Assembly (NCBI GenBank): GCA_002633005.1
Contig: NMRA01000053.1
Span: 1,163,322-1,227,321, forward strand
Direction of reading: 5' to 3'
DNA length: 64,000 bases
Origin: Phoronis australis
Lineage: Eukaryota > Animalia > Phoronida
Position 1 is the stretch's first letter. Every line of letters begins with the position of its first letter. The position numbers and the translations under genes were made by a program. The notes below the pieces were generated by a model. It saw only the letters and a program-made list of their open reading frames with translations, was not told where the DNA came from and searched no databases. Below are positions 6,833-64,000 of this stretch, piece after piece.

Positions 6833-6973
6833 ATGGTGGAACCAGAAGACTCTGCTGGGGAAGATACACCGCTGCTGTCTAGTGGTAGAAGTTTACGTAA
6901 CGGACGTCGAGGATTTGAGATTGCAGCCGGGCAGGTGGCAATACCGGACGGAGAGAAAAAGTCAGATGGATCC
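6833..6973 (+). CDS. Nramp: NRAMP coding exon 1 ([15 protein letters not shown]...DGS)
   Basis: Acceptor ttcttgtatag ends at 6825, ATG at 6833, donor GTAAGG at 6974; phase 0 matches exon 2. The VAIPD..FSFKKLW junction resembles NRAMP N-termini. Implies an upstream non-coding exon. Confidence 0.8.
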
Positions 6974-22859: not shown

Positions 22860-23037
22860 GGCTTCTTTATATAGGGTCTTCCTGTTCTGATGTTCTGTTA
22901 TGTGGCTCTAGTCTTGTTGAACAGTTATCATTGACACAGAGGTTGATAGATCATTAAGTTGTGTATACAATCGTGTTCTTATTGAGGAGAGTGTGGCTGG
23001 TGTTTATTTTTCGACGGATCTGACTATTGCGTTGCTN

Positions 23038-23420
23038 AGTTCAATCATCTTTATGCTTTTCAGATATGGTTGTGTACAAAGCTTGGCTTGGACAGTGCAA
23101 CCTTGGAGGGCGAGCTAGAGGAGTTAAGATCGACCACGTACACGGACCTGCTCTCAGATGAAACTTACCGTCAGTTTGACTGTGTCGACGACAGCGGAGC
23201 TTTCCAGAGTTCTCCAGATGTGTCGGTGAACCACGCTTGTTGAGGCTTCTTTATATAGGGTCTTCCTGTTCTGATGTTCTGTTATGTGGCTCTAGTCTTG
23301 TTGAACAGTTATCATTGACACAGAGGTTGATAGATCATTAAGTTGTGTATACAATCGTGTTCTTATTGAGGAGAGTGTGGCTGGTGTTTATTTTTCGACG
23401 GATCTGACTATTGCGTTGCT
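23038..23420 (+). other. Second copy (383 bp) of NRAMP last exon plus proximal 3'UTR; probably an unmerged allelic overlap
   Basis: Near-identical to 22654-23036, separated by a single N at 23037; three substitutions seen (W>L, L>S, Q>H); exon copy at 23064-23243. Confidence 0.8.
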
Positions 23421-33100: not shown

Positions 33101-36100
33101 GTGAACGAGAGAGTATTTTAGCCTGGTAGTCGCCAACCTTGATTTCAATGAATTTCTGGTAGACATCGGCGAGAATAGGCAATTCGTAATAAGATCGCAA
33201 AAGCAAAACGAATGTCTTTGTTTAATGCTTCTGGTCAGTCTATCCCATCCATTAATAATCCCCGACACGATAATGGCCCTTTACTGGTAATGTAACATAA
33301 CCTGGGCCAATCTCATTGCTGGCGGACTGTTCAGCCTTTTTTCACTTGGTCTATCTGCCCTAGTCTCGAAATTTGACTTCGAATTAAGGTAAAAATTAGA
33401 GAGCGATATACTGACAACAGCCGGTTCACTAATTTAAGCGTTTTGTCGCTCTCTGGCGAAAACACCGTCACTTCAACTGATCATTTACACAGTTCAAGGC
33501 TGAAGCTTGGCTCCATGATTGACAGCAGTAATGCAACTTGAACAAGGGTAGCAACATATAGAGTCATGCAAAACTTTCCCCGTTCACAATTCGTCCATCT
33601 TAACACCTGGTGTTAACTTTTGTTCAATAGCATGTATAGATGGAAGTGGTGGAACTCACCAATGGCAGGAAAAGTGGACGGAAACTAGGGACGCGGCAAC
33701 ATTTGACTGTGAGTGTGAACGCTGGCGCCCGTGGATGTTTCCTGCTGAACTACCATCACCTTTACAGGAGATAATTCCACCATCGGCAAACTGCTTCCGA
33801 CGAGGTATGCATTTTTACACAAGACAATATATATCTGTCACGAAACCTAGAAGGATTGTAATTGTTTCTGCAAGTACGGTGAGAAAGAAATTGTTTCCAG
33901 AATTGTAGAATACCAGAGATGCGTTCTGAAGGCCCCCCAACCCTTCAGAAATAATTGGGACAAAAAAATCTTTGTTTATGAAAGAAAACACTGAACTCTA
34001 TTCTAAAACTTCCATTTCATCCTTACCGGACAAATAGGTGGCCTTTAATATTTTTGGGCACTGTACTAAGCTGTAGAACAAGGGTTTATTAGTGGAGAAC
34101 TTGCCCTTCCGTGCCCTTGGCGTTTCTCCAGATTCTTGGAAGTTTTGGCCGGCAGCCCAGAATAGCTGACGGCAGCAGCGCTTCAAAGTGTTTCCCAGTG
34201 TGCAAAGAAATGGATGTCTGCTGCTGTTTACACTTTGAGTGTGGCCCTTCAGTGAGGATCCTATAAAAGGGACAAAACTGAGCTGCATAACATTACACGT
34301 TGAAGATTCCGGTCAAAAATGATTTAAAACGAACAATTCTGGCTGAGTGAGCACCGAATGACTCACGACAGATAAGTTGCAGTTTGGAAATATCACACCA
34401 GAAACCCCCAAAACACCCTCCCACAATTGAACTACTTAAGAAGCTCAATCAGTTGAGATAACGCACAAAATCTTTGATACAGTGTTAACTGAATGAACTT
34501 GACAAATTAAACTCTGGGTGGCCGGGAGCCCAGCTCCAGAAACCCCCTAAATTTTCGCTCACGGAATACTGTTCAAATATGAGCAAGATTAGATATTCGA
34601 AGTACCGGCCAAAACTGATTGAAAACGAGCACTTGTGTCACGCTGAACGCCGCCGGGATGTTCTATGACACGGAAACTGCATTCTGGGAAGGTTCCGCCA
34701 GAAACTTAAAAATAATTTAGTTCAAACATTCGAGGAACCATAAAAGCCAGTTCCACATAATTCAGTACATGTCACTAAATATGACAGACAAATGCATCCC
34801 CTTTTCCTCTGTATATTTGGCGCTCCTTGGTGGATTTTAATGCACGCGCATACTTAGCTGTAGGTGCATATTGCTGTCGTCTCTGTATGGGCATCCGGTG
34901 TCTGTCGCCCGGCATCCCGGATGCGGCGAAGCTGTATCTCCAAAACCCCTCACAGAATCTTAACGAGATTTGGCAGATGAAGCTCACAACGGATGACGAA
35001 AAATTTCGTATCTACCCGTCCATTGGTGTGGCCCCTGGTGGCAACTTAAATTTTTATGCTCTCACATATTTACATGTATTTGTGGGTGTATATTGCCGTC
35101 ATTTCTGCTTGAGCGTCCGAGCATCCGGCGTCCGTAACCGGCGTAAAGCGTCCTAAGCCCTCACAGGATCTTGATGAGATTTAGGAGATGTGTTTCTATG
35201 ACGCTTAAGATGAAGGACTTAGAATTTCAGAACTCTCCGGCCACTGGTGTGCCCTCTAGTGGCAATTTTAGTTTTTACGTTACCTCTGTATCTTCAAAGG
35301 TCCTCGGCGCATTTTCATAAAATTTGGCAGATAGGCATCTATTACTGAGGCGACGCTATCTTCCGGTTTTCTGATTGATTTAAGTTTTTACGCCATCTAG
35401 GGGCCAGTTTTTGCTGTTTTTGCCGAAGTTTGGTTGACAGAGGTGCAGAAGTCATAAAACAAACCACTATGTAGAAGGAGGAAAGTATGTTGCTAATGTG
35501 GAGAGGATGGCTGACAATCATTTTCCGACGACCTCGACTACTGTGACGTTTGCTGGTGGCAGTTTTGTTTTTTACGCCCATGGCTGAATCTCCTAAGCCC
35601 TTCGTAGGATCTTTATAAAATTTAGCAAGTGAATTTATATGAGGTTGACAACGAATGACGACGACTTTCAGATGGATCGGTCAAATACTGTGACCCCTTG
35701 GGGCAATTTCATATTTTTCCGATTTCCTCTGTTTCTCTGAAGCTGTTTATTGGATTTCTATGAAATATGGTAAGTAGCTATCTGTTGAAACGGTGACATA
35801 TTCCTGTTTTCAAATGTATTTTACATATTTTGCGCCATGTAATGGCCATTTTTTTCTGTTTTCAGTTTGTTTTTAGCAACAGTCTATCTATCTGCCAAAT
35901 CTTACTCTAAAATGATTGTGAAAATTCGCATATATGTTCTTAGTGTGAAGAGGACGGTTGACAACTAATAATTTTCCGCCGACTTCAACTACTGTGGAGC
36001 CTATTAGTGGCAGTTGTTTTTTGCGCCTATAGCCTCCTAGTGACAATTTCATTTCTCTCCATTTTTCTCGGTTTCTCAGAAGTTCCTTGACCGATTTGTT

Positions 36101-39100
36101 TGAAATTTGGTAAATAGCTTTGGTGACATATACCATTGAGCTTTCGGATGGATTCGACGTATCTTGTGCCATCGAGTAACCATTTTATGATTCAAATAAA
36201 CACCCCTAGAGCCACACGGTTTGCGGTGCAATCGTGGGCGCATTTTGACGCTCCGCGTTGCTCTTGTTTACATGTACGTTTACAACTGTATATTCTGACT
36301 CGAATTTTCAAAAAATTTGACAGACATAAATTTATTAGTAAGATGACTCTATGTTCCCGATGTACTTTGCGCCACCTAGTGGCCATTTTCAATATTTTTG
36401 AGTCTCTTTTTTGGCTTCCAAAGCTCTCAAAACAAACCACTCTACGGATGAATGTTAAAATTGACATTTATGATCTTATTGTAAAGAGGGCGGTTGACGA
36501 TGATTTTTGACTACTGTGGCGCCTCCTAGTGGCAGTTTTGTGCGTTTTGGGGTCCACGAATGCATTTCCTAAACGCTCTGCAGGTTTTTTAAATTAAATT
36601 TAGCAAGTGTATTTGTATGAATTTGATAACTGACGACAATGACTTTCGGAACGATCAGACTACCAGTGTGCCCCTTAGTGGCAATGTTATTTTGTTTTAC
36701 TTTTGCCTCTGTGTATTCAAAGGTTTTCAGCGAATTTTCATATAATTTGGCAGACAGGTATCTATTAGTGAGGTGACGCTATCGTCTTGTTTTCGGATAA
36801 ATTCGGAGATAGTTTGCGCCACCTTGTGACCATTTGTACTGTTTTGAGTCTGTATTTTGGCGTTCGCCCCTCTTTCACTCGAATGATGGAAGTGAAAACT
36901 GGCATGTATGTTCCTACTGTGAAGAGAACAGCTGACAACGGTTTTCCGACGGCTACTTCGATTATTGTGTCTCCTCCTAGTGGCAGTTTGTTACACCTAT
37001 GTCTGTATCTCCCACACCTTCTGCAAGATCTTTATAAAATTTACCAAGTGTGTCTATATGAAGTTGACAACAGACGACGACGACTTTCAGACTAATTTGA
37101 CAAACGCTGTGCCCCTCAGTAGAGACAATTTCATTTGTTGTTGCTGTCCTTTGTTTCTCTAAAGTTCCTTGACGGATTTTTTTGAAATTTGGTATATAGC
37201 TTTCTATTAACGATTAACGTATTCCTGTTCTCGTATTAATTAGACTATTTTGCGCCGTCTAGTGGTCATTTTTATGCGCCCACATATTTATATGTGGACG
37301 CATTATGCCGTCATCTCTGTCCGTCCGTCCGTCCGTCCGTCCGTCCGTCCGTCCGTCCGTCCGGGCGGCGTCCGTCCGGCGTCTGGCGTCCGCTGCTCTA
37401 TCTCCAAAACCCTTTGACATACGTTCATGAAATTTGGCACATATGTTCCATTCATAAATGGGACGGCATGTGCGAACTTTCGGACGGATCCGACTACCGG
37501 TGTGCCCCCTAGTGGCAATTTTAGTTTTTTACGCTTACCTTTGTATCTTCAAAAGTCCTGAGCGGATTTTCATGAAATTTGGTATGTAGGCACCTAGTAG
37601 TGAGATGACGCTATCCTGCCGTTTTCGGATGGATTCGACATAGTTTGCGCCACCTAGTGGCCATTTTTACTGTTTTCGAATCTGTTTTTGTGCTTCCACC
37701 CCTCTATCAACCAAACCGCTCAAAGGATGATTGTGAAAATTGGCATGTATGTGCTTACTATGTAGAGGACGGTTGACGATGATTTTCCGACGATTTCGAC
37801 TACTGTGGCNNNNNNNNNNNNNNNNNNNNNNNNNNNNNNNNNNNNNNNNNNNNNNNNNNNNNNNNNNNNNNNNNNNNNNNNNNNNNNNNNNNNNNNNNNN
37901 NNNNNNNNNNNNNNNNNNNNNNNNNNNNNNNNNNNNNNNNNNNNNNNNNNNNNNNNNNNNNNNNNNNNNNNNNNNNNNNNNNNNNNNNNNNNNNNNNNNN
38001 NNNNNNNNNNNNNNNNNNNNNNNNNNNNNNGATTATTGTGTCTCCTCCTAGTGGCAGTTTGTTACACCTATGTCTGTATCTCCCACACCTTCTGCAAGAT
38101 CTTTATAAAATTTACCAAGTGTGTCTATATGAAGTTGACAACAGACGACGACGACTTTCAGACTAATTTGACAAACGCTGTGCCCCTCAGTAGTGACAAT
38201 TTCATTTGTTGTTGCTGTCCTTTGTTTCTCTAAAGTTCCTTGACGGATTTTTTTGAAATTTGGTATATAGCTTTCTATTAACGATTAACGTATTCCTGTT
38301 CTCGTATTAATTAGACTATTTTGCGCCGTCTAGTGGTCATTTTTGTTGTTTTCTAAACTTTTTTGGCGTCCGGTGCTCTCTATCACCCAAACACTGTTCG
38401 TGTGATGTTAGTGTTTATATTTCTACTGTGAGGAGGACGGCCGATGATGATTTTTGGACGACTCTAATTACTCTGGTTTTTTATGCCGTCATCTCTGTCT
38501 GTTCGTCCGTGCGTCCGTCCAGCGTCCGTCCGTCCGGCGTCCGCTGCTCTATCTTCAAAATCCTTTGACGCTGTACGTTCATGAAATTTTGCACACGTGT
38601 TCCGTTCATGAATGGGACGGCATGAGCGAACTTTCGGACGGATCTGACTGCCGGTGTGCCCCCTAGTGGCAATTTTAGTGTTTTATGTTTGCCTCTCTAC
38701 CTTCAAAGGTCCTCAGCGTATTTTCATAAAATTTGACATGAAGGAATCTATCAGTGAGATTCAACGAAGTTTGCGCCACCTATTGGCCAATTTGCCGTTT
38801 TCGAGTGGGTTTTGGCGTCCACTCCTCTATCAATAAAACCGCTCTATGGATGAAAATTGGCATGTAAGTTCTTACTAAGAAAAGGACAGCTGACCACGAT
38901 TTTCCGACGACTTCGACCTCGTTTTTTGAATTCATGGCTGTATCTCCTAAACCGTTTGCAGAATATTTACTAAATTTAGCAAGTGTATTTATATGATGAT
39001 GACAACAGATGACAACTTTCGGACGGATCTGACCACTGGTGAGTCCTCTAGTGGCAATTTTAGTTTTTTAGGTTTACCTCTGTATCTTGAAATGTCCTCA

Positions 39101-42100
39101 ACGGATTTTCAGAAAATTGGGAATATAGGCATCTATTCAGTGGTGAGATGGTGCTATCCTCCGAGTTGCATGGTCATATTTACTTTTCATGTTTCGAACC
39201 TAGTTTTCCGAAAAAAATATACCCTTTCGTTAGACAACTCTTTGGTGCACTAACTTATTTTCTAATGTATTTTTATGCGCCCACATAGTTATATGTGGAC
39301 GCATTATGCCGTCATCTCGGTCCCTCCGTCTGGCGTCCGCTGCTCTATCTCCAAAACCGTTTGACGTACGTTCATGAAATTTTGCACATATGATTCTATT
39401 GTGGATGGGACGGCATGAGCAAACTACTGGTGTGCCCCCTAGAGGCAATTTTAGTTTTTTACACTTACTTCTATATCTTCAAATGTCCTCAACGTATTTT
39501 CATAAAATTTAGAATACTGGCACCTATTAGTGAGGTGATGCTATCCTGCCGTTTTCGGATGGATTCGACGTAGTTTGCGCCACCTAGTGGCCATTTTTTG
39601 CCGAGTCTGTTTTTTGACGTCCTCCCACCTATCAACCAAACCGCTATAAGGATGATTGTGGAAATTGGCATGTATGTTTTTATTATGAAGAGGATGGCTG
39701 ACAATGATTTTCAGACGGTTTGACTACTGTGGCTCCTCCTAGTGGCATTTTTGTCTCTTTTTGTGCCCATGGCTGTATTTCCTAAACCGTTTGCAGGATC
39801 TTTACTAAAATCTGCACGCGCATTTATATGGTGTTGACAATGGATGACGACGACTTTCGGACGGATCTGACAACCGGTGTGCCCCCCTATGGGTAATTTA
39901 TTTTTTTTACGTTTACCTCTGTACCTTCAAAGGTCCTCAACGTATTTTCATAAAATTTGAAATGCAGGCACCTATTAGTGAGATGAAGCTATCCTCCCAT
40001 TTTCGGATGGATTTCACGTAGTTTTCGCCACCTAGTGGCCATTTTTACCGTTTTTAGTCTGTTTTTAGCGTCCACCCCTCTATCAACCAAACCGCACTAA
40101 AGACGAATGTGAAAATTGGCATGTATGTTCTTACTACGAAGCTGACGATGATTTTCCAATGATTTCGACTACTGTGGCGCCTCTTAGTGACAGTTTTGTT
40201 TTGTTTTGTGCTCATAGCTGTATCTCCTAAACTCACTGCAGGATTTTATTAAATTTAGTAACTGTATTTATATGAAGCTAACGACAGATGATGACGTCTT
40301 TCTGGTGGATCAAATGAAGGCTGTCTCCCAAAGTGGCAATTTCAATTTTTTCCTTTGTTTCTCTGAAGTTCCTTGACAGATTTTTATGAAATTTGGGAAA
40401 TAGCTTTCTATTAAAGAAGCGATGGCATGGTCCCATTTTCAGATGGGTTGGACGTTTTTTCGCCCTGTGGTGGCTATTTTTATGAAACAAATAAACAACC
40501 CTGGAAGCACTCCATTTGCGGTGCATTCGTGGGCGCATTTTAACGCCCCGCGTTGCTTTGGTTTTACGTCTCTGTGGTTAATTATGGACACATTTTTATG
40601 CGCCCACATATTTATATGTGGACGCATTATGCCGTCATCTCCGTCCGTCCGTCCGGGCGGCGTCCCGCGTCAGGCGTCCGCTGCTCTATCTCCAAAACCC
40701 TTTGACATACGTTCATGAAAGTTGGCACATATGTTTCATTCATGAATGGGAAGGAATGTGCGAACTTTCGGACGGATCCGACTACCGGTGTGCCCCCTAG
40801 TTGCAATTTTAGTTTTTTACGCTTACCTTTGTATCTTCAAAAGTCCTGAACGGATTTTCATGAAATTTGGTGTGTAGGCACCTTTTAGAAAGATGACGCT
40901 ATCCTCCCGTTTTCAGATGGATTCGACATAGTTTGCGCCACCTAGTGGCCATTTTTAGTGTTTTCGAGTCTGTTTTTGTGCGTCCACCCCTCTATCAACC
41001 AAACCGCTCAAAGGATGATTGTGAAAATTGGCATGTATATGCTTACTATGTAGTGGACGGCTGACGATGATTTTCCGACGATTTAGACTACTGTGGCGCC
41101 TCCTAGTGGCAGTTTTGTTTTTTTTGCGCCTATGGCTGTATCTCCTAAACCTTTCGCAGGATCTTTACGAAATTGTGTAAGTATATTTATATGATTTTAA
41201 CAACGGAAGATGACGTCTTTTGGACGGATCCGACTACCGGTGTGCCCCCTAGTGGCAATTTAATTTTTTACGCTTACCTTTGTATCTTCAAAAGTCCTGA
41301 ATGGATTTTCATGAAATTTGGTATGTAGGCACCTATTAGTAAGATGACGCTATCCTCTCGATTTCGGATGGATTCGACCAAGTTTGCGACACCCAGTGGC
41401 CATTTTTACTGTTTTTGAGTCTGTTTTTTGGCGTCCACCCCTCTTTCAACCAAACCGCTCTAAGTATGATTGTGAAAATTGGCATGTATGTTTTTACTAT
41501 GAAGAGGACGGTTGACGCTGAATTTCCCATGACTTTGATAACTGTGGTGCCTCCTAGTGGCAGTTTTTTTGCGCCCATGGGTGTATCTCCCAAACCGTTT
41601 GCAGGATCTTTACTAAACTTAGCAACTGTATTTTTGTGATGTTGACAACGGACGGCGACGACTTTAGGATGATTCTGACTACCGGTATGCCTCTAGTGGC
41701 AATTTAAGTATTTTACATTGACCTCTGTATTTTCATAGGTCTTCAGGTGTATACTTAGTGTTACTTCGTGACTATGAAGGAAAAGTTCCAAGTAGAAATT
41801 TGTTTCTGGCATTCTAATGCTGTGCTAATCTTGTATGTTGATAAATTTGTTTTTAATTCTTTGTTTCTGTGGTGCTTTAAGCAACTGATGTATAGGATGT
41901 GCATGTATTATGAAGATCACTCACATTTTGCCCCTAGCCTATTGAGGAGACAATGACCATCTGTCTTTCCATTTTGCAAAGTACAACATACTACATATAC
42001 ATGTGTGCCCTCTACTGGTCACTTTATGGTACCAATAAACAACCCTAGAAGGATACCGTATACGGTGCAATTGTGGCGCATTTCAACGCTCTGCGTTGCT

Positions 42101-44671
42101 CTTGTTAAGATTTAATATCCAGGTTGGACTCTAAAGACCGGCCATTTATTAAACTCACGCAATGTCAACTTCCGCTTTGCTTATCGCAGTGAGCCTCGCT
42201 TTGGATTTTAATGTCCGCCGCATGAATTAGGTCTATTGGCAAGAGCATTGCTGACTTGCTATGTACCCCTAGAGGCTCCTTGAAGTTTATTGTATTGCTC
42301 TATTTAATGATATTTTTAAAATAGTTATCTTCCCTTGTATCTGCGCTGTACGCGATGCACACGGAGGTTGCAATTTCAACGCTTCGCGTTGCTCTTGTTT
42401 GGAAAGTCTTCAGTTCCGGACACCTAGTTAACATTTTGTGATATTTTTAAAAGAAGGCAGATATGAAGAACAGACAGATGTGACTTATTTGTACATTTCT
42501 GTGAAACATATTGTGTAAAAGGTTTCAAACTGAAAATACTTCCCGCCAAAACGGGCTTTCGTTGACAACTCCAGAAAAGTCCAAGGACACAGGTACTATA
42601 TCAATTCACTACTACACCCACAAAAACAAATTGAGAAAAATGTGATGCTAAATATGTAGGGAATAATTGCTTTATCGGTATACTGAGTTTGTAATCATTA
42701 AATGCAACTCCTGTGTCGGCAGTAACAATCACTACGAAACCAAGGGGCATCAGTTGCTCCTAGGCGTTCACACCACCTATTCGCTTGCAGAATTTATTTT
42801 TATTTATTTATTTAAACTTCTTTAAAAGACAAGGTGTCCACTTCAGTGAATACGCTGATTTTCAAGTAGACCCAGTCGGAAATGATTACATGAAGTAAAA
42901 TACAGTCAGTTACGTGTATTAGTTAGATCGAAAAAATTAATAAATAAATAAATTACGTATTCAATCTGTTAATATGTAAAATTTGATGAATAAATCAGAT
43001 GAATTAGAGTAAGAAAGTGATGAGCTGAGGCCTGCAGTCCCGAACAATGCACAAAGTCCCTGTTTGAAGACGTGCACATTGGGCGCGTTCGCGACGGGAG
43101 TCCCCAGCCCGTTGTAAGCGGCAGCATCTCTGTAGGCAAAAGTTCTTTTGCCACAGTTGTTTTTAGGTTTATCTGGTACCAGGCAGCCAGAAGCGCTTTC
43201 TCTAGTATTGTAATTGTGAGAATCTCTGACTGCCTTGAATTTAGTCGTAAGGTAATTGGGTGTGAGGCTATGTGTGGCTTTGTACACCATAAAGTTTAAA
43301 TGAAAGGCACGCCTGCTAACCAGGCTGCACCAACCAAGTTTATCGAGGTCAGCAATAGCAATGTCATAATAAAATGAAATTAAAACACCTTCTCATTTGA
43401 AATGGGCTTTTCTCAAATAAATGAGCTTCGAAAAAAGGACTTAAATTGAATACTTAATAATAGATTAATAATCTAATGTCCGAATATTTTGTTTCTTTTG
43501 ATAGTTACTAGCAGGCTAAAACCAAATATTTTTCTTTTGGCAAACTCCTTTGTGACAAGTGGTTTCCTGCAAAATCTTGTATAGGTGAGACAGCTGAGTT
43601 TTAGAGATTCACTTTTGTGTTTCTGGAGGGCACTTTCCAGATAACGAATTCGATGCTCAGTGTGACACACGCACAGTACGACTGTTCAGTTTGAATCAAT
43701 GTGGGCCGGTACTTGGAATTTCAACATCACATGGGCGAGATGTTTAGCAAGACCTATTTAGAGTGTATTTTATCTGACATATGCGCCATCTAGTGCACTG
43801 AATCGTATGGAATTCGTTTTCGAATGACCTGAAATGATTGAGGTAGTTTAATTTTTTGGGGGCCTTCTGGTGTTTTTGTCTAGCATTCGCAGGGTGCAAC
43901 TCTTGTGGTCTTGAGTCTTGCGGTGATAAGTGTTTTACGATCATTCATTTTAATTCAGTTTTGAAAAAACTCCTCAACATGTGTTGTAATCTATCTCGCA
44001 TTTTTTAGTGTTCTATGGGTGATAATCCATATTAGTTTCTGGTGCACCTAACAATGAGTGTATATTATGTATAAGCTATTTACTGATCAGTGGCTTGTCC
44101 TGGATCACATGAAATTATTTGTGTGTGTGTTGCCTCGGCTACTTTGATGCAGGTAATTTTAGAGATTTGTTTTCGGGTTTCTGGCCGGCACTTTTCAACG
44201 TGCAATTTTTTCTCTGTCTTGGTCATTCAGTTCCCAGTTTGCGAAGGAATGTTCATTAAAAATCCGTTTTGGTCATTACCTCGAATATATGATCTCATGT
44301 ATAGCTCAATTTCGGTTCCTCTTATAGTGTCCCCAGGGGACTCACACAGAGTGCAGACATTGACAGAGACCCATTTATGAACATACAGTACTGGGGTGTA
44401 ATCTGTACTCCTGTGATTAAATGTCTAGGCTAAGTACTCTGGACTGCCGGTCTGTTAGTTCTTTACTACTGTACGTTAAACTGGATATCGACGTGTTTCG
44501 TTGGTAGGTTGTGAACGCTCAGATGGACGGCACATGGAGTACGGCCAGACGTACATGTACCACGTAGAGGATAGCGGCAAGAGTTACAAGTGCACGTGCG
44601 TTAACGGTCGAGATCCAAGAGTATTGGATGATGCTCCTCATTCACACATTAAGTGTGAGCCTGTTGAGTAG
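30185..44671 (+). CDS. Secreted cysteine-rich protein, gene 1 (signal peptide-KR + modules A, B, C), 175 aa, family unassigned
   Basis: Exons 30185-30267 (MWSTIVLCCSALLWSSAPQVRSQLLPK/R), 32511-32617 (CLFKDYSLVTWFKDCNIEWEMDEPFCVTAINNCPT), 33631-33804 (TCIDGSGGTHQWQEKWTETRDAATFDCECERWRPWMFPAELPSPLQEIIPPSANCFRR) and 44508-44671 (GCERSDGRHMEYGQTYMYHVEDSGKSYKCTCVNGRDPRVLDDAPHSHIKCEPVE*). GT-AG introns with phases 2,1,1; each exon has clear paralogues at 49.5-63.6 kb with conserved Cys and splice sites; AATAAA at 44836. Confidence 0.88.
34838..42400 (+). mobile_element. Cluster of nested/tandem DINE-1/HINE-like (Helentron-associated non-autonomous) elements in intron 3 of gene 1
   Basis: 5' ends after T-runs with hairpin ATGCGCCCACATA-TTTA-TATGTGGACGCAT followed by GTCC-type microsatellite (37274, 39275, 40598); 3' subterminal inverted repeat GTGGGCGCAT plus stem-loop AACGC-nnn-GCGTT and GCTCTTGTTT (near 36234, 40529, 42072; stem-loop only near 42377); central ~150-bp tandem repeats. 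Complete-looking copies at 39275-40565 and 40598-42106. Confidence 0.8.
38031..38344 (+). other. Duplicate of 36960-37273 across a gap (likely alternative haplotype)
   Basis: About 314 bp near-identical; diverges exactly where the HINE at 37274 begins. Confidence 0.7.
42790..43350 (-). mobile_element. 5'-truncated LINE (CR1/L2-group-like) ORF2 C-terminus, 3'UTR and AAAT-type tail
   Basis: LGW.SL..RR..H..MVYKATHSLTPNYL..F...HNYNTR...L..P...GKRTFAY..A..YN.L....FKQGL matches the typical CR1/L2-group ORF2 end; (TAAA)n tail on the minus strand at about 42790-42812. Confidence 0.8.
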
Positions 44672-44835: not shown

Positions 44836-44841
44836 AATAAA
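44836..44841 (+). terminator. Candidate polyadenylation signal (AATAAA) of gene 1
   Basis: 165 nt after the stop at 44671; a second AATAAA lies near 44928. Confidence 0.45.
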
Positions 44842-49555: not shown

Positions 49556-52500
49556 ATGATGTGGTCTTCCGCCGTCCTCTGCTTCGTTTCGATGTTCGTC
49601 TCGTTAGCTCTGCACGTGAAAAGTGTAGAGCAGCGTAAGCCCTATCACCTAAAAAGGTAAGACAGATAATCAAGACACTCTCGTTAAACTTAGTATAGCC
49701 ATGTTGCTCAGTCAAATGGCGTCTCTTGGCTAATGGGACTCAACATCAGAGTGTCCCACGATTGAATCAGTTGTATATTTTAATCTTTGTTTGGGAGGTG
49801 GGGGAGGTTGGAGGCTATCAGTACTGAGTGTTTAGGTTTTTCATCAGCAGTAGCCTACGTACATTATGATTTGAGTTAAGGTTACTGCATAATCTGAAAC
49901 GAATTACTTTTAAAATGCAAAAAAATCAAACCATCCTATATGATATTAGAGAAACAGTTGTCTAATGGTATAAAAGCTGCGATACTTGTAAGTGAAGCTT
50001 TGCTGTTATTCTGACCGGAACCGGTGTGACGTCGGTAGGTTTGGTGTTGGGAAAAAATCTCGGATGTCTGAGAAATTTTCAATGAAACGACGCACTGCGT
50101 TGTTGATTTATTGCATTTCACAATGTGTGAAATATTTTCGAAGGAAACGAAGTCTAGCACGAGCCTGTTCTGACTGACATCTGGGCCAACTATAGGGAAA
50201 CGCAAACGTGAACGTCATCAACACTTTCTGGAGTCGTCGCTCAATTGGTTGAAAAACAACGATACAAAAATAGACAGCTAAATTTCACATATTTCATTGA
50301 ATCTAGGGGATATGTTCTCATACCTGACTGTGGTTATGACTCCAGTGTTACCTTTTTAAAGCTAAAACAACTGAAGAAAACAGAAAACTGTCAGACTATT
50401 ACATGGAATACATGTAAGCAAATCAGAGTTAATGAGGTGACATGGTTTGGTTGCCTTGTATAAGGATCGAAAAGTGATCTCAAACCAGTCATTTGAATAA
50501 TGACTAGGCGATTTCCTATCAAACGAGTGTATACATGTACATATGCGGTAGTTTGGCTCTTATCGTAAAATCCTGCAAATAAGGACATGCGCATGCATAC
50601 GAAGTGCTGCGTTTTTCGCAAGTTTTTTACTCAAATGTTTCGCATCAGGGTCGTGTGCACAAAGTCTGCAAATACGCGCATGCATTTACAACGAACACCC
50701 GTTGAGTCCGTAATCCAGACCACACCTGTTTTCAATCTTTCTTTTGTTAATCGCCAGGCTCATTTTTTACCGATGTCGCTACGCAAACGTCAACTACCTA
50801 CCACGCTGAATAAATACATCAATATAAACACGCATCGGCTCGAAACCTGCGTTGAAAACAAATAAAAACCAATCGCAGCGTTTCGGCCAAATTTTATTGT
50901 AGGTCTATGGCGAAAGAATGATTTTGTGACAACATTTCACGAGGAATTCAGTTTGAGAAGCCAAACACTTAAAAAAACTACCAATTTCTGTCCTTAACAT
51001 TTCAGCTTATTTCAGCCAATATTGTATTGTCGCGAAGACTCGCTATAGTAATAATTGGCCTGTATAACACAATAGGAGCTTAGATCAACTATGAGGTGTG
51101 ACATCAAGGGAGGACGGTGACACCGGTTTTCCCCTCTTGATGTAGAGAAGCCGATTGCTTGTCTTCAAGATACCACAGAACGGACCCGTTTCTTCATGCT
51201 GGTCTCCTTGTGCTCCGATTCTAGGAGCACCTTGAATGTATTTGAAAAATACACTAAACCAGTTACGCATCTTAGGATAGCTTGCAAACCGGGTTGGCTG
51301 TTGAAAGAAAGATACAGAAACGGATAACAGATCGCAGGGCACTGTGGCCCAGCACAGCTGGAGGAACTGAACTTACCGAAGACTTGTTCTTTTCTTGATG
51401 AGACGAACAAGCAAAACAGGTTTTTTTGGCTCTATGTCATCGTTAAGAATATGCTCGAATTCCACATGCAAAGTACAAAGCATAATTGACTCTGTGGTCT
51501 GAAAATCGAATCGGTAGTGCGGTACTTTTTAGTTGCTCACTTTTTCAAAAACGAAATGACGCGGAATTTGGGTTTTTAGCCACAACTTGGCAAATCATGG
51601 CCGTAAAACCTTGGCTTCAAATTAATCGTGTAGGTGGGCGCTTTTCTTTGTTTATTAAGTCAGTGGGCACAGGTCTCAAAATGAGTTGGGAAAAGACCAG
51701 AACTAAGTTTGCTTTTTTGGCCTCATACAGTGCTTGTCAAAACTGTTGTTGCGTCTATTTTTTGTAAAAGTAACTAGAAAGCAATGTCACGCTTTCATCA
51801 TTGTTATCACATTAAAAGCTGTAAATAGGTCGATACTTCTAAGCTGATTATTCTCATATGTATCACTTTACGAAAGCATAATAGTTTTTTAAATAGAAAA
51901 AAACTGATAGTTAAGATACTCAATTTATTCAGTATTTTGCATTCCGGCCCATATACAAGTATGAAAGTAGTAAATACAAGAGCTTAATTAAAAAAACGGT
52001 TGACGTAATACAGGCTGTTACATTAACTATGTAAGTTCCAAACGCTGCAAGACTTCATCAAATAAATGAACTGATCACCATAGAAGTTATAATACCAAAC
52101 TTTCTCCTACGATCTTCACATAGTGGACACTCTAAAAACGCGTTTTTCATCAACAGTGTCAGAACAAACATAGCAGAAACGCTGATCTCTAGCTATATCC
52201 AAGTGTATAAAACGTGCAAGAGCTGTAATTAAATATTTTTGTCTAGATATCTTGCATTCATAAGAATCTAATTTACTAAAAGATAATATTTCGTTCAGCT
52301 ATTGCTGTTCGTCTATGTACAAATAACTCTTCGTTACCAAGTGCTTGACTGACTCAAACAATACCAAACCCAGTCCTGACGTGGAGACCCCAGTTTTCAC
52401 GATTTTCTTCTGTAAAGTTTTGCTGGACCTTATGGCATGAGGAGGTGTATCAGTCTGAGGCAATTTCATCGACTTCAACCAATATCTAATAATCCCAGTA

Positions 52501-55500: not shown

Positions 55501-58500
55501 AGCAAATCAGGTATCTCCTAATTCTAATGAATGTTATCGGTTAGTATGAATATTCATTGTGAATATTTTCATGATGTGTAGTGCAATAAATAACTGATAT
55601 ATCATATGCATAAGAGATCTAATTGGAAAAAGAAATGTAATTAATTAAATGCATTTGGTCCGCAAGTATGTGGAACCTTTCAAAATTTAGAACACATTAG
55701 TTGTTTTTATCAGAAAGAAACTTTACCATCAGCAAAATCAAAAGTCTAATTTATATAAACTAAGAAAATGTCTGTAAACTTTAAAAATGAAATTACAATG
55801 ACTCTAACTAGGTACTGGTGTTTATTTCTCTAGTAAAAATACTGAATCATGATACAGGTGAGCGTATATCACGACAGACAGTCATTCACCGTTCACAATA
55901 TTGTCAAAAACATTAGCATCGTGATTGAAATCCTGACACGACAATAGCTGTACGAACACTGTGCGAATGGGAATCTAGAAGCATACGGTAACTCCTACAA
56001 GTTCATGATTAAAGTTTTTGTACAATTCATATAAACACTGCGAGGTCGTAGTAGACGACAAATAATGCTGGCCGGTATGTTACTGCTGCCTGGCAGTGTG
56101 CATCAACCTCTTGGTTTTTCTACGCAGTTCATTTGAATTAATCCCACAATTATTAACGGCGGGTTGACCACTAACATGCCGCAATGCCAAGGGAACTATT
56201 TTTCGCATTTATTCGAAAAATAAAGAGCATAACCGAGTTGATGTCGTATATGGCTGCCAACGCGAACTCCGATCTGAATCTGACTTGGTTGCACCACCAT
56301 CGTGTGAGAGAAATCATCAAAGCTACCTCATTAAATATTCAAGATGGTGGGTGAACCAGTGTACTCGATCGTCAAAATGATACACGTCAGTTTTGGCTTG
56401 CACCGTCCGTAGTTAATGACAGCAAACCTTCATGCGTGGAGCCAAAAGAAGCAAAAAAATATTCATCTGTCCACTTCCGCCTATAGAAAGGAACTAGAAA
56501 TTCACTAGGCCATGCTAGGTAATGCAACGGGTAATTAGTAAAAATACGTGGGCTGCATTTCATACACTCGCAAATTAAGCTAATGTTGTCACGTGCTCCC
56601 CTGGTAAAGCATGGCGAAATCAGGCAAAAACGTACGTGATAGTGTGTCATCCGTCGCGAGTGTCTTGCGTCTACGTAACACAGCTATGCACTCAGATCAT
56701 CGCGTGGGACCACAGGCACGCCTCCTCTCTCTGTCATTTCAGGAGTTAAAAAGAGGGTTGTCGTTAGCACCACCTGGTGAATAAGGAGTAGCCCATTGGA
56801 ACTAATACCTCCGAACTATTTTGCAGAGTGAAAAATGTGACCTAAGAAAACTTTTTTTTCGCTTTTGAGCCCGGTCTTCATGTGATACTAACATTTACTT
56901 CTGTATCAACTTTTTCTAGGTGTCTAAATGTACCTGATGATTTGCTTGAGTGGTTTAAAGGTTGCAAAATTAAGAAGTCTTCACGGTTAGATTGTGTGAC
57001 TGCTATTAAATGCCCAAAAGGTAAGTACAGATTTCAACAATTTCCTGTATTCAGTGTGTTAATCATGAATCTTAGAAATTTTCTTGGTCGATTTTTATCG
57101 TAATTTTATTGTAATTGTTGCAAATTTCCAAAGCTGTACGGTGGGATGTACCAATGGCTTACGAAAGAAGACAAAAGGTTTTCAAATATCAGTTGATTAT
57201 CAGGGATGTCGTGTTCCATTCATTTCCCACTGTAAAGATGTATCCGCGACAAAGCCAGTGACCGCCGCTGATAAAACGGGAGAATTGCGATTACAGACAG
57301 TGTCAAAAACCTAAAATAAATTAGTGAATTTAAGGAAATCCTAACCCTTATTCCCAAAAATTGGCCATATTTACAATATGTCACATATTTATGTGCATAT
57401 CTAGCAAAACACATTATCTTCATTCTCGGGGAACTTCAAATTCGAAATACATACCGTGTAGCGAGAAAAACAGATTTGGCACAAACACCTTGGAACTGCA
57501 CAACCGCGTGCAAATTACTTTACTACTTATTCGAGTTCAAAGGTTACAGGGCTCTCACTCAAATTGAATCTCCCGCCAGGCACAGAGCAGCTCCGTATGT
57601 ACCCTCAGTTTTTCATTCACAGAGTCGTCATAATATTACTTCAACGGCGTGTACATACTGTATGATAGAAATATGTCGGGGAAAACGAAGACAAACTACT
57701 CACGACGTGCTTTAACCAACGACCCGATTTCTGTAACCATGTCGTACTTTGTTTTCATATCAGTTTCCCAGGTCGTGATATGTCTAACAATGAGCTGTAT
57801 GACCTACTTTAAAGTGGACCACAATGCACCAGGTTGACCCACTTCATATGGTGACTCCGCCCATGACAAAATCGACTTGGTTTAAGTGAAAAGTTTTTGT
57901 GATAATTAAGTTAATTGGGCACTGCAAATTCATATGACATTGTTCGTGAATGTTGAAATAATGAACGTGGCTAAGGGGTGTATAGGTTAAATTGACCAAA
58001 AACAAGTTTTTACCGAATAATTGACTCGGCCTTGAAATTTTCACGTCTTGCCACCTAATCGGCTTTTCTGGGCTTCGGCAAATCGACTTAATTGGAAATT
58101 AGGAACACGAGTTCTCGAAAACGGCTCGATGGATTTTACTGTAACTTTCCAAACTCAATACTTATTCATCAACCTCAGAGACGCTTTTAGGATTTTCGAT
58201 ATAAAGACCTAGTTTTTACGCAATGTAACAAAGACGAACAGGACTTCTATTTTTTACAAAAATACCTTACACTTTGCGAGTTGACTTGTCATAGAAATCA
58301 CACAAAACCGTTAATTGAAAACTCTTAATAGCATTTCTGGGGTAACCGGTGAAGTTTTCATTTTTATAAGGTTTCACTAAAATCGACCCAGGGGTTACTC
58401 TATCATGAATGTACCTTTCGTATCATAGAATTTTGTTAACCTAATAATAATAATGACACATAAATATAAACATATTTTTATATTCCCTGACCATTTTTTT

Positions 58501-61500
58501 GGAAAATTTATACTTATACTAGTTGACACAGCGTAGTTTCTTGATATACAAGTTAGAATGGAGGCCACTAAATAAAGTTTGAGATAACCTTAACCAACCA
58601 AACTATGGGAGGACTGACAGTGGAATTATCTCCTCTACATTTATATTTCAGAACCACTATGTAGTAGTTTACTTTCTGTCCACCAAATCTGAGTCTGGAT
58701 CAGTCGGAAGTCACTTTCGTGGTACCATTACTCTTCTAGAGATCGCTAATATGAAAAGCCCCCCCCCTATTAAGTGATCCGTTTAATGTAAAGAATCCAC
58801 TAGTGTTTATTTTTCTAATAAACGTACCGAAGCATGATACAAGTGGACGTTCATCGCGAAGGACAGTCATTCAACGGTCAAAATACAAACAAGAACAGTA
58901 ACATTGTAATATTTCGTTGGTGTACGCGACAACTGCGCTGCAACTCCTTTGATAATCTTTGAGTAATAAATAAATTGTCAAGACCAGGAGCCACTTCTTA
59001 TCGAATACAGGAAAAATTTAGATCAATTCTTGTGGAGGTGCTTGGTGGCTTCAATTTGTAAAAAATAAAGAATGATAAATTGAGAAATAGCCAAATCTCA
59101 AAATATCTGACGACGTCACTCTGATTCCACGGTATAACCCGTAATACCGTCGTAGGGTACTCGTCTCAATCTTGCCCTGCTTATCCTTAATGTATGTCAA
59201 AGTCAGTACCTCGTTCTTCAAAGTTTTGCCGTGGCGCCTATAAGCTGTACAACCGACACAAAAACTTTGACTAGTTGAGTGGAGAGATATATCGTTCTGA
59301 ATGGTTGGGTTAACTTAAATACAAATATTTATCAAAGCCAAAGACCAAACGTGGACTTTCTAACAAAATAATAACTACATAGGTACATTCATAATACATG
59401 TACGTTCTTTTATACATTTGATTATCTCGTACAAAGACCGTAACTCAGGGGTTTTCACTAGAAGCTGATACTGTGATTGCGCAAATACTTTCCTGTATGA
59501 ATGCAATCCCAGAACCGTAGTATCATGTGGAGACAAGTAGGTCTCTGATACAGCTATTTGGACAAAAGAACACATACATGTACGGTGAGCAATCAATTCG
59601 CACTTACCAGTTTTGTTCGTTACTAGTTCGAATCATCACAGAAGTGTGCCAGCAGCATAATCTTTTAAAAACTAGGCCAATCATAAAACGCGTTTTTCCA
59701 CCTTCGCAACAGAAATGCGTCTATTTCATACGAAGCGTTTTTTGTTCAAGTACGTTGTTGTTCTACTAGGGAAATCAGCATTTGACAACGATGTGTGACA
59801 TAAGAAGCTGCATGTTCACGTTAGTTGCCGTTTCTTCTCTTGAATAGAATGTAAAGATAAAAGCGGTCATATTCACAAGTTAAACGACGAGTGGGCGGAG
59901 ACAAAGAGCGGGGTCACGTTTGACTGCGAGTGTAAACGCCCAACCACGTGGTTGTTTCCTTCTCCCGAAGAATTGCCACAAACATTGTACAAGAAACTCC
60001 CACCGCAGGCAATCTGCAAACGACGAGGTATACACATTTTAGTCGTTTAGTATACAATATCTGAATTAACAGAAAATTCTTCATTGCGCTATCAAATCTG
60101 GAGCATTGGAGTGCAATGTGATATTTAGTGCATCTCAAACATAAAGAACTGGGGAGTAGGTAATCACTAGAAACTGTGTCACAGTTTGATGAAAAGATAA
60201 TTTTTACCGATTTGGTTGGACAGCACACAACAGTCCACAATAAGTATGTAGGCTAAATTATCACCCGATTTATTATCATGTTTTTGTGTCAAGGTTGCGC
60301 TCGTTCAGGCGGACTTCACATGAATTACGACGACACGTATTACGAGGAACATGGCGGTAAGAGATACAAGTGCACGTGCGTCAATGGACCAGACCCCCTC
60401 GTGATGGATGACGCATCCCATTCGCACATTAAGTGCGAGGTTGTACATGTAGTTAGGTAACAAGAGGCAGTATCCAGGATTTACACAGGCGTTCGTACGC
60501 GCGAAATGAGCTGTATTTCAACAGACTATTCTTGGTCAAGTTTTTGGCAAATAAGCACCTACGTCTAAACTAATCTTTTCAACACATGCTGGACTTCGTT
60601 CCTCAGGTTGGTGGTTGAAGCTGGTTGCATTTGCGTGTTTTTTTTCGGACATTTGTATTGTTCAATTTATTCCTCAAAGTACATTATCGGTTTTACACTA
60701 CAAAAACGAATTTTTGAGACTGTTGTTGTTCAAAGTTTTTAGGTTTAACCAGAGTTCCAAAACAACCAAATCCGTTGTGTTCTTATGATTTTGTTACAAA
60801 TTGTCAATTTTCGCCGTTGTCTACCACGTCTTAGCTAAAAACAAGGCCGTGGATTGTGACTTATCGCTGCCAGCAGAGCGTTGGACAGCGGTGGCAAGGG
60901 GTTTGCAGTTTTAATTTCACGCAGAAACCGACCCCAGAAAATCACTTTTATCGCTGACAATATCCCTTTAATCTTAAATGGCAGAAAAGTAAAGCTTCAC
61001 CCAAATTATGATGGTTTTCCTGAGTTCTTTCGCATTTTTCCACATGCGCCAACACTCGTTTTAGACAAACTACACAAAAAAGGGTTACGTCAAATTGCTT
61101 GCCCTGAAATTGAAGAGACTTAGACAATGTCGCTGATATGCGTGTATTTCCAATTATTCATAATATCTTTTCTAACTTGGCTTGTACTGTTTCGAACACC
61201 GGTTTTGAAAAAAATACATGGCATCCCACAGGCAACCTTTATTTTCATGAACTATGACTTTAAAGGTGTTATCAAAAGATACTGATTATTTCCCAGAATC
61301 AGCATGTACACCCTGTATTTATATTATCACGTCGGCGCTAATTGAAGAAGATAATCGTATAATGTAAACATGTTAACTCGAACTTTTGCCAAAAATGTTA
61401 ATTAATGAAATTGAGATTTACGTTTATAATTAGGAATTGTATTAGAAAGCTGCAGTCACAATTTCCTTTGATCACTTTTCCAGGTGTATTTCGATACGTG

Positions 61501-63608
61501 AAACATTACTTACGTGGTTTAAAGGTTGTGTTATTGAGAGGGCTATGTCAGAAACTCCCTGTGTCACTGCCATAAGTAACTGCCCAAGAAGTAAGCATAT
61601 CGGTTTTTTATTCTCTAGTATCCAGTTAATTAAACTAAAATCGCCCGAACCATTGATTTGATTTGCTTTATTTTAAGTTACGCAAGGTAAGTTGAGGGCG
61701 TTATTTAACGATATCTGAACGCCACTTTTCATACATACTGGCTTTTCTCATGTCAGGCTCTGTAGAAAGCATTTGGAATTGTTAGTATACTGTGAAAGTA
61801 AATAATAATTATTGTTAACTTCTTTTGATTTCAGTTGTCTTTTCTGGTACCTCTTAAAGGCAAATTATCAATTGTTTAACATCATGAGAGTAATCAAATT
61901 TTGACATTTTGTAACTAACTCAGTTTAAAAGACGATAAAATTTCACTTTGCACGTGTAAACAGCTTCTGTTATTACAGTTTCGTTACGTTTCACCAACAG
62001 CATGTAAAGATGGGAGAGGTCAAACTCACCAATGGAATGAAGAGTGGGTAGAGACAAGAGGAGTCGCTAAGTTTGACTGCAAATGTAATCACCCGGTCAC
62101 TTGGGTGTTTCCCTCCCCCGATGACTTACCACCAGGATTGATCGAGAAAATTCCTCCATCGGCAAACTGTAAACGACGAGGTATCCACCTTTTGAGTGTA
62201 CATTCTGCTTTGTACAAAAACAATGAACAAGATTCATGTATAATTTCGAAAATCGCAAATATTTTTGCGATAGATTTAGACGACTCAAAAATAACTTGCT
62301 GAACAAGAAATTGCGTCAAAAAGGCTTTCCTTGTTATAAAGAAAGTATGAAACAAACTAACGAAAGAATGGCAAGAACGTTTCAAGAAATGTGGTGTCGC
62401 TTGCCGACTTCTAAATAGGTATTGTTTTGTGAACGCCCTAGAATGGAATGCGTTTATGTCAATTTCAAGAGAAGGGTTATGCTACCGAAGCAATGAATGA
62501 GCTTCTAAAGCGCACGTGTTAAAATATAGTTTTTTGCCATTGCGATTCGGACGGAAAAGTTTCGATATTTATGCATGCCATCACATTATTCACCAGTACG
62601 CCTTTCTCTCAAGCTTGTGCTCGTTCCGGCGGACTTCACATGAATTACAACGATACGTACTACGAGGAACGCGACGGCAAGATATACAGGTGCACGTGTG
62701 TCAATAGACCAGATCCCTTGTTAATGGATGACGCACCCCACTCCCACATTAAGTGCGAGGCCCTAAATAGGTAACAAGGGGTAGCAAGCACTCAAAAATT
62801 TACATATTCACTGAAACAAGCTGCTTTTTCAACAGACAATTCCGAGACAAGTGTTTCGCACATGACCAGAACGACATAAACTAGTCTTGAAGATACAAAC
62901 TGGTGTTTGCTGTTGAGCTACGTGGTTGACATTGGTTGTGTAGGCTTGTATTGACCGGATGTATATAAACGTATTGTTTAATTTATTCCTTAAAAGGACA
63001 TTCTCGATTTATAGTAAAAAACTGAATTTTGGGATTGTTATTCAACGGAATAATTTTTTGAAGTTATGAGCTTTGACTAGAGTTCTTTTTTTCTTAAAAG
63101 CACCTTTGTTTTTGTGATTTTGTTGCGAATCGTCAATTGACGTATCGCAACCTCCGTCCCCTTGCAAAATGTCGACAAACAAACAATAAGTTTTAACCAG
63201 CAACGTGTTGTTTGTTGGCCAATGGCGGCTTGGAAACGAATGTGTGTTAATAATGCTGCATTCTAATTGGTCACTTAAGCCGTCACTTGGCAGCAGAATG
63301 TTGGACAACGGTTGCGTGGAGTTGCAGTTTCGATTTCACGCTGAAATGGATATCAGAAAATCACTTTTATCGCCGATAATGTATCATTAATCTTTGCACT
63401 TTTGCCAACAATGGTAGTTTTTGAAGTTGAGAGTTACGTTTTTAATTAAGAATTCCATTTGACGGCTACAGTCATAATACCATTTGATAATTTTTTTCTA
63501 GATGTATTTTGATACGTGAATCATTACTCACGTGGTTTAAAGGCTGTACTATTGAAAGGGCGACGCCTGAGTCTGCTTGTGTCACTGCCATAACTAACTG
63601 TCCAAAAA
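49556..63608 (+). CDS. Secreted cysteine-rich multi-module protein, gene 2 (signal peptide-KR + [A-B-C]n, n>=2 complete plus a third A; runs off the window)
   Basis: Exons 49556-49656 (MMWSSAVLCFVSMFVSLALHVKSVEQRKPYHLK/R), A1 56920-57020, B1 59848-60027, C1 60294-60456, A2 61484-61590, B2 62001-62180, C2 62614-62770, A3 63502-63608. All phase-compatible (2,1,1,2,1,1,2) and homologous to gene 1 exons. No signal exon seen between C and the next A. If C1 is not spliced, the CDS ends at TAA 60458-60460. Confidence 0.82.
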
Positions 63609-64000
63609 GTAAGTTTATTAATTTATCTATTTTGTTGCTTTCACTTCATTTAACATATATCGCCCAAAATGTTGTCTTAATTTGATTTTCCTTTATTTTA
63701 AGTTGCACACGGTAAGTTGACGGCGCTATTTGATGATCTCTAAACGCTAGTTTTTATACAATTAAGCTTTTACATGTAAGCTTGTACAGCATGCGCGCAC
63801 CCAGCCTTTAATATGGGGGGGGGGTCGAATTTCTGGCGATGTGGACCTTTTGCTGACACAAAAGCGGGAGGACTAAAAAACGGGGTACCACCTTCACTGT
63901 GCGTCTGCCCCTTTTTAGTGGACTTTTGTCTCGTTTTCTCGGACTTTTTGTTTCTCTGGGGCGGACCTTTTTGCCCACTTCGAACCCCCCGAGCCCCCCC

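What the first reader, a model, noticed from the sequence alone, without database searches (positions are those of the whole stretch)
56920..63608. Exon-triplet concatemer chained by a splice donor that overlaps the stop codon (possible monomer/polymer switch)
Seen: after one signal-peptide exon, gene 2 repeats exons A-B-C-A-B-C-A with homologous introns (60457-61483 resembles 62771-63501) and no new signal exon. Each C exon ends ...AG|GTAACA (60456, 62770). Unspliced this reads R-STOP (AGG TAA), giving a one-unit protein like gene 1. Spliced, it is a phase-2 donor that fits the phase-2 acceptor of the next A exon, regenerating R-C. In gene 1 the stop sits at nearly the same position (CEPVE*) followed by AATAAA; I saw no AATAAA in the two gene 2 C-to-A introns. 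Inference: a terminal exon's stop context became a donor, turning a small secreted protein into a tandem-module polyprotein, and donor usage could set chain length.
Basis: partly seen in the sequence, partly recalled or inferred. Interest (0 to 1): 0.85.

Follow-up and report, generated by a model that had tools for sequence, protein, structure and literature searches.

The report
Secreted protein chained by bridge introns
A marine invertebrate gene carries at least three tandem copies of a small secreted cysteine-rich protein, likely spliced into one long chain through a site that probably arose from the old stop codon; a regulated short-versus-long switch is possible but untested.

Summary
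The anatomy is real. After one signal exon, gene 2 has exons A-B-C-A-B-C-A; both C exons end AG|GTAACA; the spliced frame stays open for 365 codons with all 12 cysteines per unit; dN/dS is 0.22. RNA reads show splicing inside units 1, 2 and 3. No C-to-A joint reached the listing threshold of 3 reads, but coverage is too thin to decide. The donor/stop overlap itself is ordinary: any phase-2 intron starting GTAA reads residue-stop when unspliced, and 4 of 4 other phase-2 introns in this window do. What stands is the likely origin: the site lies near the family's stop, is far more donor-like than the single-unit gene's stop, and a G|TAA donor is necessarily phase 2, matching the acceptor inherited from the signal intron. 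The two donors look like one origin copied, since the duplicated block starts just before C. Best reading: a bridge-intron polyprotein made by tandem duplication, a known kind, in an undescribed lophotrochozoan family with fibronectin-type-I-like modules. A regulated monomer/polymer switch is unproven (about 0.15-0.2): no canonical poly(A) signal lies in either bridge, though about four sense reads fall in the first.

The parts
49556..49656 (+). Gene 2 signal-peptide exon; ends K-R in phase 2 at AAG|GTAAGA (also reads R-stop unspliced)
56920..57020 (+). Exon A1, 4 Cys, phase 2 to 1, no known family
59848..60027 (+). Exon B1, 4 Cys, phase 1 to 1, weak fibronectin type I likeness
   Evidence: joint to C1 in RNA
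60294..60456 (+). Exon C1, 4 Cys, predicted FnI-like fold, ends TAG|GTAACA
60457..61483 (+). Bridge intron 1 (predicted), phase 2, no AATAAA/ATTAAA; about four sense-strand reads in run X1
61484..61590 (+). Exon A2
   Evidence: joint to B2, 3 reads in X1
62001..62180 (+). Exon B2
   Evidence: joint to C2, 6 reads in X1
62614..62770 (+). Exon C2, ends TAG|GTAACA
   Evidence: depth 4.5 falls to 0.15 in the next bin
62771..63501 (+). Bridge intron 2 (predicted), phase 2, homologous to bridge 1, with repeat insertions
63502..63608 (+). Exon A3; joined in reads to a B-type exon that is not in the window
   Evidence: 2 reads each in X1 and X2
30185..44671 (+). Gene 1, single-unit paralogue: signal 30185-30267, A 32511-32617, B 33631-33804, C 44508-44671 with stop TAG; 175 aa; AATAAA at 44836

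Best explanation
Gene 2 is a tandem multi-unit member of a small secreted cysteine-rich family, and its units are likely joined into one polyprotein by phase-2 bridge introns whose donor probably arose from the old stop codon. Inferred history: a single-unit gene (signal, A, B, C, stop) was duplicated without its signal exon; a stop preceded by G already holds GT in phase 2, the same phase as the acceptor that exon A inherited from the signal intron, so a few substitutions around the stop made an in-frame donor; a later unequal crossover with a border in the B-C intron copied C-bridge-A(-B), giving the second identical donor. The bridge is most likely spliced as an ordinary, somewhat weak intron; unspliced molecules would give a one-unit protein as leakage. 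The product would be a secreted chain of at least three 12-cysteine units, probably acting as a multivalent binder or cross-linker in extracellular matrix, mucus or tube material (function inferred only from the FnI-like fold and repetition). Shown: exon layout, phases, open frame, purifying selection, within-unit splicing. Inferred: the C-to-A splice, the origin from the stop, the order of duplications, the function.
For: Open frame of 365 codons with 29 Cys. dN/dS 0.22, bootstrap 0.10-0.44, Fisher p 8e-6 for A2/A3 plus C1/C2, 86 codons. No second signal exon. The site is the best-scoring GT near each C end and in each bridge, scores 1.84 against -6.97 for the GT at gene 1's stop, and is matched by 94 of 3486 stop triplets in the window (2.7%; 94 of 694 G-preceded ones, 13.5%). 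The most abundant relative in the reads ends in a true stop whose context matches C1's at 9 of 12 letters, and all three differences (-2, -1, +4) move C1 towards the donor consensus (read by eye). No canonical poly(A) signal in 1758 nt where 2.5 are expected, P about 0.08. In X1, depth 4.5 over C2 drops to 19 bases in the next 128-nt bin (10 of them exonic) and 0 in the one after, as at an internal exon. A2 and A3 are spliced to B exons in RNA although no promoter-signal exon precedes them.
Against: No C-to-A joint is listed, which showed all 5 joints above threshold; with a mean of 4.25 reads at the four within-unit joints in X1, missing both has P 0.04, or 0.14 if mates overlap. About 590 bases of sense coverage (about four reads) lie in bridge 1 in X1 while the B1-C1, A2-B2 and B2-C2 intron bins are 0. 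The donor scores below 16 of 22 other donors, in a matrix trained on only those 22. The 3' end of the bridges does not align with the 3' end of the signal intron (scores 32 and 29, shuffle maxima 36 and 37). The terminal exon lies outside the window and no genome is held. X2 has no cover of A2 or C2.
Confidence: 0.6

Rival explanations
1. Regulated monomer/polymer switch: C1 (and C2) are composite terminal exons; a weak donor competes with a non-canonical poly(A) site in the bridge, so one gene yields 1-, 2- or n-unit proteins in set ratios.
For: Donor in the weaker third of the window's donors. Read-through gives a complete unit ending 1-3 residues past the family's stop. Sense reads only in bridge 1 among the non-repeat intron bins, ending near 61350, with AATACA at 61213 and AATGAA at 61404.
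Against: No AATAAA or ATTAAA. No read-through after C2. The bridge reads are about four, one run, and may be pre-mRNA. Every phase-2 GTAA intron offers the same apparent switch. The family already has single-unit genes, one of them far more abundant (393 and 282 reads).
Confidence: 0.18
2. Shared leader, alternative units: the single signal exon is spliced to A1, A2 or A3, and each unit ends at its R-stop, giving different monomers from one promoter; AG|GTAACA is only a stop context.
For: All A acceptors are phase 2 like the signal donor. Purifying selection and within-unit splicing fit equally. No C-to-A joint listed.
Against: Needs a 3' end after every C, yet there is no canonical signal and coverage stops at the end of C2. 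Does not explain the donor-like shift of the stop context. No signal-to-A2/A3 joint among the 15 rows shown (11 rows hidden, and signal-to-A1 was not shown either).
Confidence: 0.13
3. The downstream units are leftover or separate copies: decaying duplicates, or genes with first exons that were missed.
For: Very low expression; X2 shows none of A2 or C2.
Against: dN/dS 0.22, all cysteines and splice sites intact; spliced reads in units 2 and 3; no candidate signal exon in 1027 and 731 nt. Not an assembly duplicate: exons differ by 16-30%.
Confidence: 0.06

Closest known systems
Bridge-intron multi-domain genes (Barbatia two-domain globin; trematode two-domain taurocyamine kinase)
   Same: A single-domain gene duplicated in tandem and joined in frame by an intron between the copies, with single-domain relatives alongside. 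PMC4732748 (passages) ascribes the Barbatia bridge to unequal crossing over; PMC3836730 (one passage) lists a bridge intron.
   Different: Here the bridge is phase 2 (the kinase bridge is listed at 426.1, phase 1), the old stop is kept inside the donor, the protein is secreted, and there are at least three units. The primary Barbatia papers were not held, so how their stop was lost was not checked.
Domain gain by joining exons of adjacent duplicated genes
   Same: PMC2926785 (passages) names this as the main route of domain gain in animals.
   Different: Here the joined partner is a copy of the same gene, and the donor is proposed to come from the stop codon itself.
Composite terminal exons, intronic polyadenylation and intron-retention switches (e.g. 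NXNL RdCVF/RdCVFL)
   Same: An unused donor lets the frame run into an intronic stop and gives a shorter protein (PMC4227790 passages; 10.1101/2022.01.06.475223 passages).
   Different: Those cases have shown short mRNAs. Here no poly(A) site or short mRNA is shown, and the switch would set the number of whole units.
Fibronectin type I (FnI) modules
   Same: B and C share C...G...CxC...C; top PDB sequence hit is the fibronectin 1F1-2F1 pair (E 0.0044); the C1 model's ten best structural rows are all FnI-containing entries (Z 3.3-4.4).
   Different: Below Pfam's cut-off; 18-27 residues between CxC and the last Cys; preceded by module A with no match; the organism is nearest to nemerteans and brachiopods.

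Membership tests
Bridge-intron multi-domain gene | Tandem homologous domain blocks in one open frame with one first exon | tested here: met
   365 open codons if spliced, one signal exon
Bridge-intron multi-domain gene | Single-domain relative exists | tested here: met
   Gene 1, 175 aa with stop and AATAAA; stop-ending relative in reads
Bridge-intron multi-domain gene | Bridge intron removed from the mRNA | tested here: inconclusive
   No joint with 3 or more reads; P 0.04-0.14 under full splicing; coverage edge at C2 fits splicing
Bridge-intron multi-domain gene | 3' end of the bridge matches the 3' end of the first intron | tested here: inconclusive
   Same phase, but no alignable sequence; A1 versus A2 dS is 0.76, so the trace may have decayed
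Composite terminal exon / intronic poly(A) switch | Weak 5' splice site | tested here: met
   Scores above 6 and below 16 of 22 window donors; small training set
Composite terminal exon / intronic poly(A) switch | Canonical poly(A) signal in the intron | tested here: not met
   0 AATAAA and 0 ATTAAA in both bridges; only variant hexamers
Composite terminal exon / intronic poly(A) switch | Both short and long mRNAs exist | tested here: inconclusive
   About four sense reads in bridge 1 in X1; no poly(A) end listed; no C-to-A joint listed
Composite terminal exon / intronic poly(A) switch | Ratio changes with tissue or condition | not testable with these tools
   Needs deeper or 3'-end data
Fibronectin type I domain (PF00039) | Pfam gathering score 27 bits | tested here: not met
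   18.1 bits, E 0.0031 for B1; 0 of the other 5 B and C exons hit fn1
Fibronectin type I domain (PF00039) | Four cysteines with a central CxC | tested here: met
   All 6 B and C exons
Fibronectin type I domain (PF00039) | Short loop (about 6-9 residues, recalled from PROSITE, no call) between CxC and last Cys | tested here: not met
   18 residues in C, 25-27 in B
Fibronectin type I domain (PF00039) | Two- plus three-stranded antiparallel fold | tested here: inconclusive
   C1 model pLDDT 75.9; best Z 4.4, rmsd 2.4 over 44 residues, top ten rows FnI, but Z under 8; Foldseek no E<=0.001; B2 model pLDDT 47.9 unusable

The most novel reading that the evidence does not exclude
The retained stop inside the donor is a working chain-length switch: one gene makes 1-, 2- or n-unit secreted FnI-like polymers according to how often each bridge is spliced. 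More generally, because a G|TAA donor is always phase 2, any gene whose signal intron is phase 2 is pre-adapted to turn tandem copies into a polyprotein while keeping the monomer as fallback.
Probability: 0.18. Interest if true: 0.7.

Novelty: new variant of a known kind. Interest (0 to 1): 0.4.

Why it matters
If the joint is real, this is a clean, fairly recent snapshot of a single-unit secreted protein becoming a polyprotein, with the single-unit gene next door and the old stop still readable inside the new donor. It suggests a simple testable rule for how bridge introns start. It also points to an undescribed family of FnI-like secreted proteins in a lophotrochozoan. If donor use were regulated, it would be a compact way to tune the valency of a secreted protein.

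Tried and rejected
No RNA holder listed in the index; three raw-read runs were added by species label. Homologue searches found no relative: B2 exon, 0 of 6 candidates; B+C profile, 0 of 722; metagenome contigs, 0 of 83 and 0 of 151 pattern matches confirmed; module A profile against PDB, 0 hits at E<=10. These searches are weak for 35-59 residue queries. The two hits of the full HMMER search are bacterial-type Ig-repeat proteins whose scores add up over many weak repeats: rejected. The protein atlas gave no answer. Rfam: 0 matches. The B2 model was too poor to search. Earlier scan findings: none in 3 look-ups. The NRAMP-like exon phases were off by a wrong start and were redone; donor sequences were unaffected. 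Assembly duplication rejected for the units (70-84% exon identity). Literature: searches for bridge intron with stop codon, stop codon with splice donor and tandem duplication, phase-2 intron with in-frame stop, protomodule and FnI in invertebrates listed no paper whose title or abstract start describes a stop-derived bridge donor or this family; most were seen as listings only, and subscription papers are not held. PMC6526912 and PMC11401434 term look-ups gave nothing relevant.
Full report
Setting. The window is animal DNA with gaps. An NRAMP-type metal transporter gene at 6.8-22.9 kb has its nearest relatives in a nemertean (90%) and a brachiopod (89%) among 87 hits, which places the organism among lophotrochozoans. 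No whole genome is held. Two genes of one family follow: gene 1 (30185-44671; signal, A, B, C, stop, AATAAA) and gene 2 (from 49556 to beyond the window's end).

Observation. Gene 2 has one signal exon and then A1-B1-C1-A2-B2-C2-A3. Phases run 2,1,1,2,1,1,2,1, the spliced frame is open for 365 codons, and each complete unit keeps 12 cysteines. The two C-to-A introns align far above shuffles (253 against at most 41). Neither holds a signal-type exon or a canonical poly(A) signal. The downstream exons are under purifying selection: dN/dS 0.30 for A2/A3, 0.17 for C1/C2, 0.22 together (0.10-0.44; p 8e-6).

Is the donor/stop overlap special? No. In a phase-2 intron the first G completes the codon and TAA, TAG or TGA follows whenever the donor starts GTAA, GTAG or GTGA. 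That holds for 16 of the 22 other donors I drew in the window. All 4 other phase-2 introns read residue-stop unspliced: both signal exons and NRAMP-like introns 4 and 11. The junction Arg is also forced by AG plus G or A. The overlap therefore says nothing about a switch.

What is special is the position. The stop falls 5 codons after the last cysteine in gene 1 and in the most abundant relative seen in reads (393 and 282 reads), 6 in C2 and 8 in C1. Around the stop, that relative and C1 agree at 9 of 12 letters, and the three differences, at -2, -1 and +4, all move C1 towards the donor consensus (read by eye; a short match that needs a 9-nt offset, so homology is not proven). In a matrix built from the window's 22 donors, TAG|GTAACA scores 1.84, the best GT near each C end and in each bridge, above 6 of 22 true donors, against -6.97 for the GT at gene 1's stop; 94 of 3486 stop triplets in the window reach that score. 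A donor made from G|TAA is by geometry phase 2, and exon A's acceptor is phase 2 because the signal intron is. So in this family a stop-derived donor is in frame automatically. This is inference, but it explains why the join was easy.

One origin, not two. Similarity between the units begins about 11 nt before C. The bridges and the start of the A-B intron are 73-78% alike, while the B-C introns do not align. dS is 0.45 for A2/A3 and 0.62 for C1/C2, but 0.76-0.84 for A1/A2 and B1/B2 (short exons, wide error). The latest copied block is thus C-bridge-A(-B). The identical donors are one event plus a copy; the true terminal C exon should lie beyond the window.

RNA. The index listed no RNA holder; three raw-read runs of the same species label were offered, and 18-19% of each was read. 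At 80% likeness on 59817-63656, one search listed 5 joints in all: B1-to-C1 (35 and 21 reads, plus 33 and 11 at a shifted place, mostly from relatives: only 6 of 36 in X1 and 0 of 27 in X2 carry the window's letter at 60007), A2-to-B2 (3, X1), B2-to-C2 (6, X1) and a B2-like to C1-like joint from a relative (135 and 102). Two reads in each run join A3 to a B-type exon outside the window. No C-to-A joint reached 3 reads. With a mean of 4.25 reads per within-unit joint, missing both has P 0.04, or 0.14 if mates overlap: mild evidence against full splicing. Against read-through, X1 depth is 4.5 over C2 but only 19 bases fall in the next 128-nt bin, 10 positions of which are exonic, and none in the following bin; the bin holding A3's first 27 nt has 83 bases. 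That fits two or three spliced reads under the threshold but cannot prove them. At C1, none of 429 reads at 60436 carries the window's letter, so that end is likely untested. About 590 bases of sense coverage, some four reads, lie in bridge 1 in X1, while the other non-repeat intron bins are empty; this is the only hint of retention or a short form. X2 does not cover A2 or C2. In one search, 11 joint rows were hidden, so joints from the signal exon were not tested.

Protein. B and C resemble each other weakly (hhalign E 0.0015, probability 17%) and fibronectin type I modules: Pfam fn1 18.1 bits against a cut-off of 27 for B1, best PDB sequence hit the 1F1-2F1 pair (E 0.0044), and a C1 model (pLDDT 75.9) whose ten best structural rows are FnI-containing entries at Z 3.3-4.4. 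They are FnI-like, not members by the curated test. Module A matches nothing. No true homologue was found. The signal exon ends K-R before the first cysteine in both genes, a candidate processing site (convertase rule recalled, no call); each bridge places a single Arg at the same position, so the chain might be cut back into units. Function is inferred only: a multivalent secreted binder or cross-linker.

Comparison. Multi-domain genes joined by a bridge intron after tandem duplication are known: Barbatia two-domain globin (PMC4732748, passages; PMC4503718, passages) and trematode taurocyamine kinase (PMC3836730, one passage). Joining of adjacent duplicates is described as the main route of domain gain in animals (PMC2926785, passages); phase-2 introns are the rarest class in human genes, 21% (PMC3632108, passages). 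Short forms made by an unused donor are known as composite terminal exons (PMC4227790, passages) and intron retention as in NXNL (10.1101/2022.01.06.475223, passages). My searches listed no paper on a bridge donor that keeps the ancestral stop, but the primary Barbatia papers were not held and no supplements were read.

Verdict. Observation confirmed. Polyprotein through an ordinary bridge intron 0.6; regulated switch 0.18; shared leader with alternative units 0.13; leftover or separate copies 0.06. The first two share the C-to-A splice, about 0.78 together. New variant of a known kind; interest 0.4.

Noticed in passing
window 6833-22900: NRAMP/SLC11-type metal transporter gene, 14 exons as drawn, 523 codons before the first stop; nearest hits in a nemertean and a brachiopod. 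Its predicted intron 13 starts GTAACT, a donor type close to GTAACA.
   Followed up: partly
window 12760-13215 and 14191-14646: A 51-nt tandem repeat flanking an N gap carries the acceptor and first bases of NRAMP-like exon 5 (14551), so many candidate acceptors lie in a row.
   Followed up: no
window 22654-23420: The last NRAMP-like exon region is doubled around a single N at 23037, 380 of 383 letters identical: probably an assembly overlap.
   Followed up: partly
window 60294-60456 (reads): Reads show about three other family sequence types: a dominant one ending in a true stop (393 and 282 reads), one with four linked differences at 60348-60355 (42-45 and 25 reads), and a gene-1-like one (12 reads each).
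   Followed up: partly
window 49650-49656, 30261-30267, ends of B exons: K-R just before the first cysteine in both genes and a conserved R-R-G at every B/C junction: candidate convertase sites (rule recalled, not tested).
   Followed up: no
window 35200-41750: Dense nest of dispersed repeats, about 450-nt spacing, inflating gene 1's B-C intron to 10.7 kb.
   Followed up: no
window 63130-63290 and 63790-64000: High-copy repeats with read depth on both strands inside gene 2 introns.
   Followed up: no
window 3073-3414: 57-nt tandem repeat, 5-6 near-identical copies.
   Followed up: no
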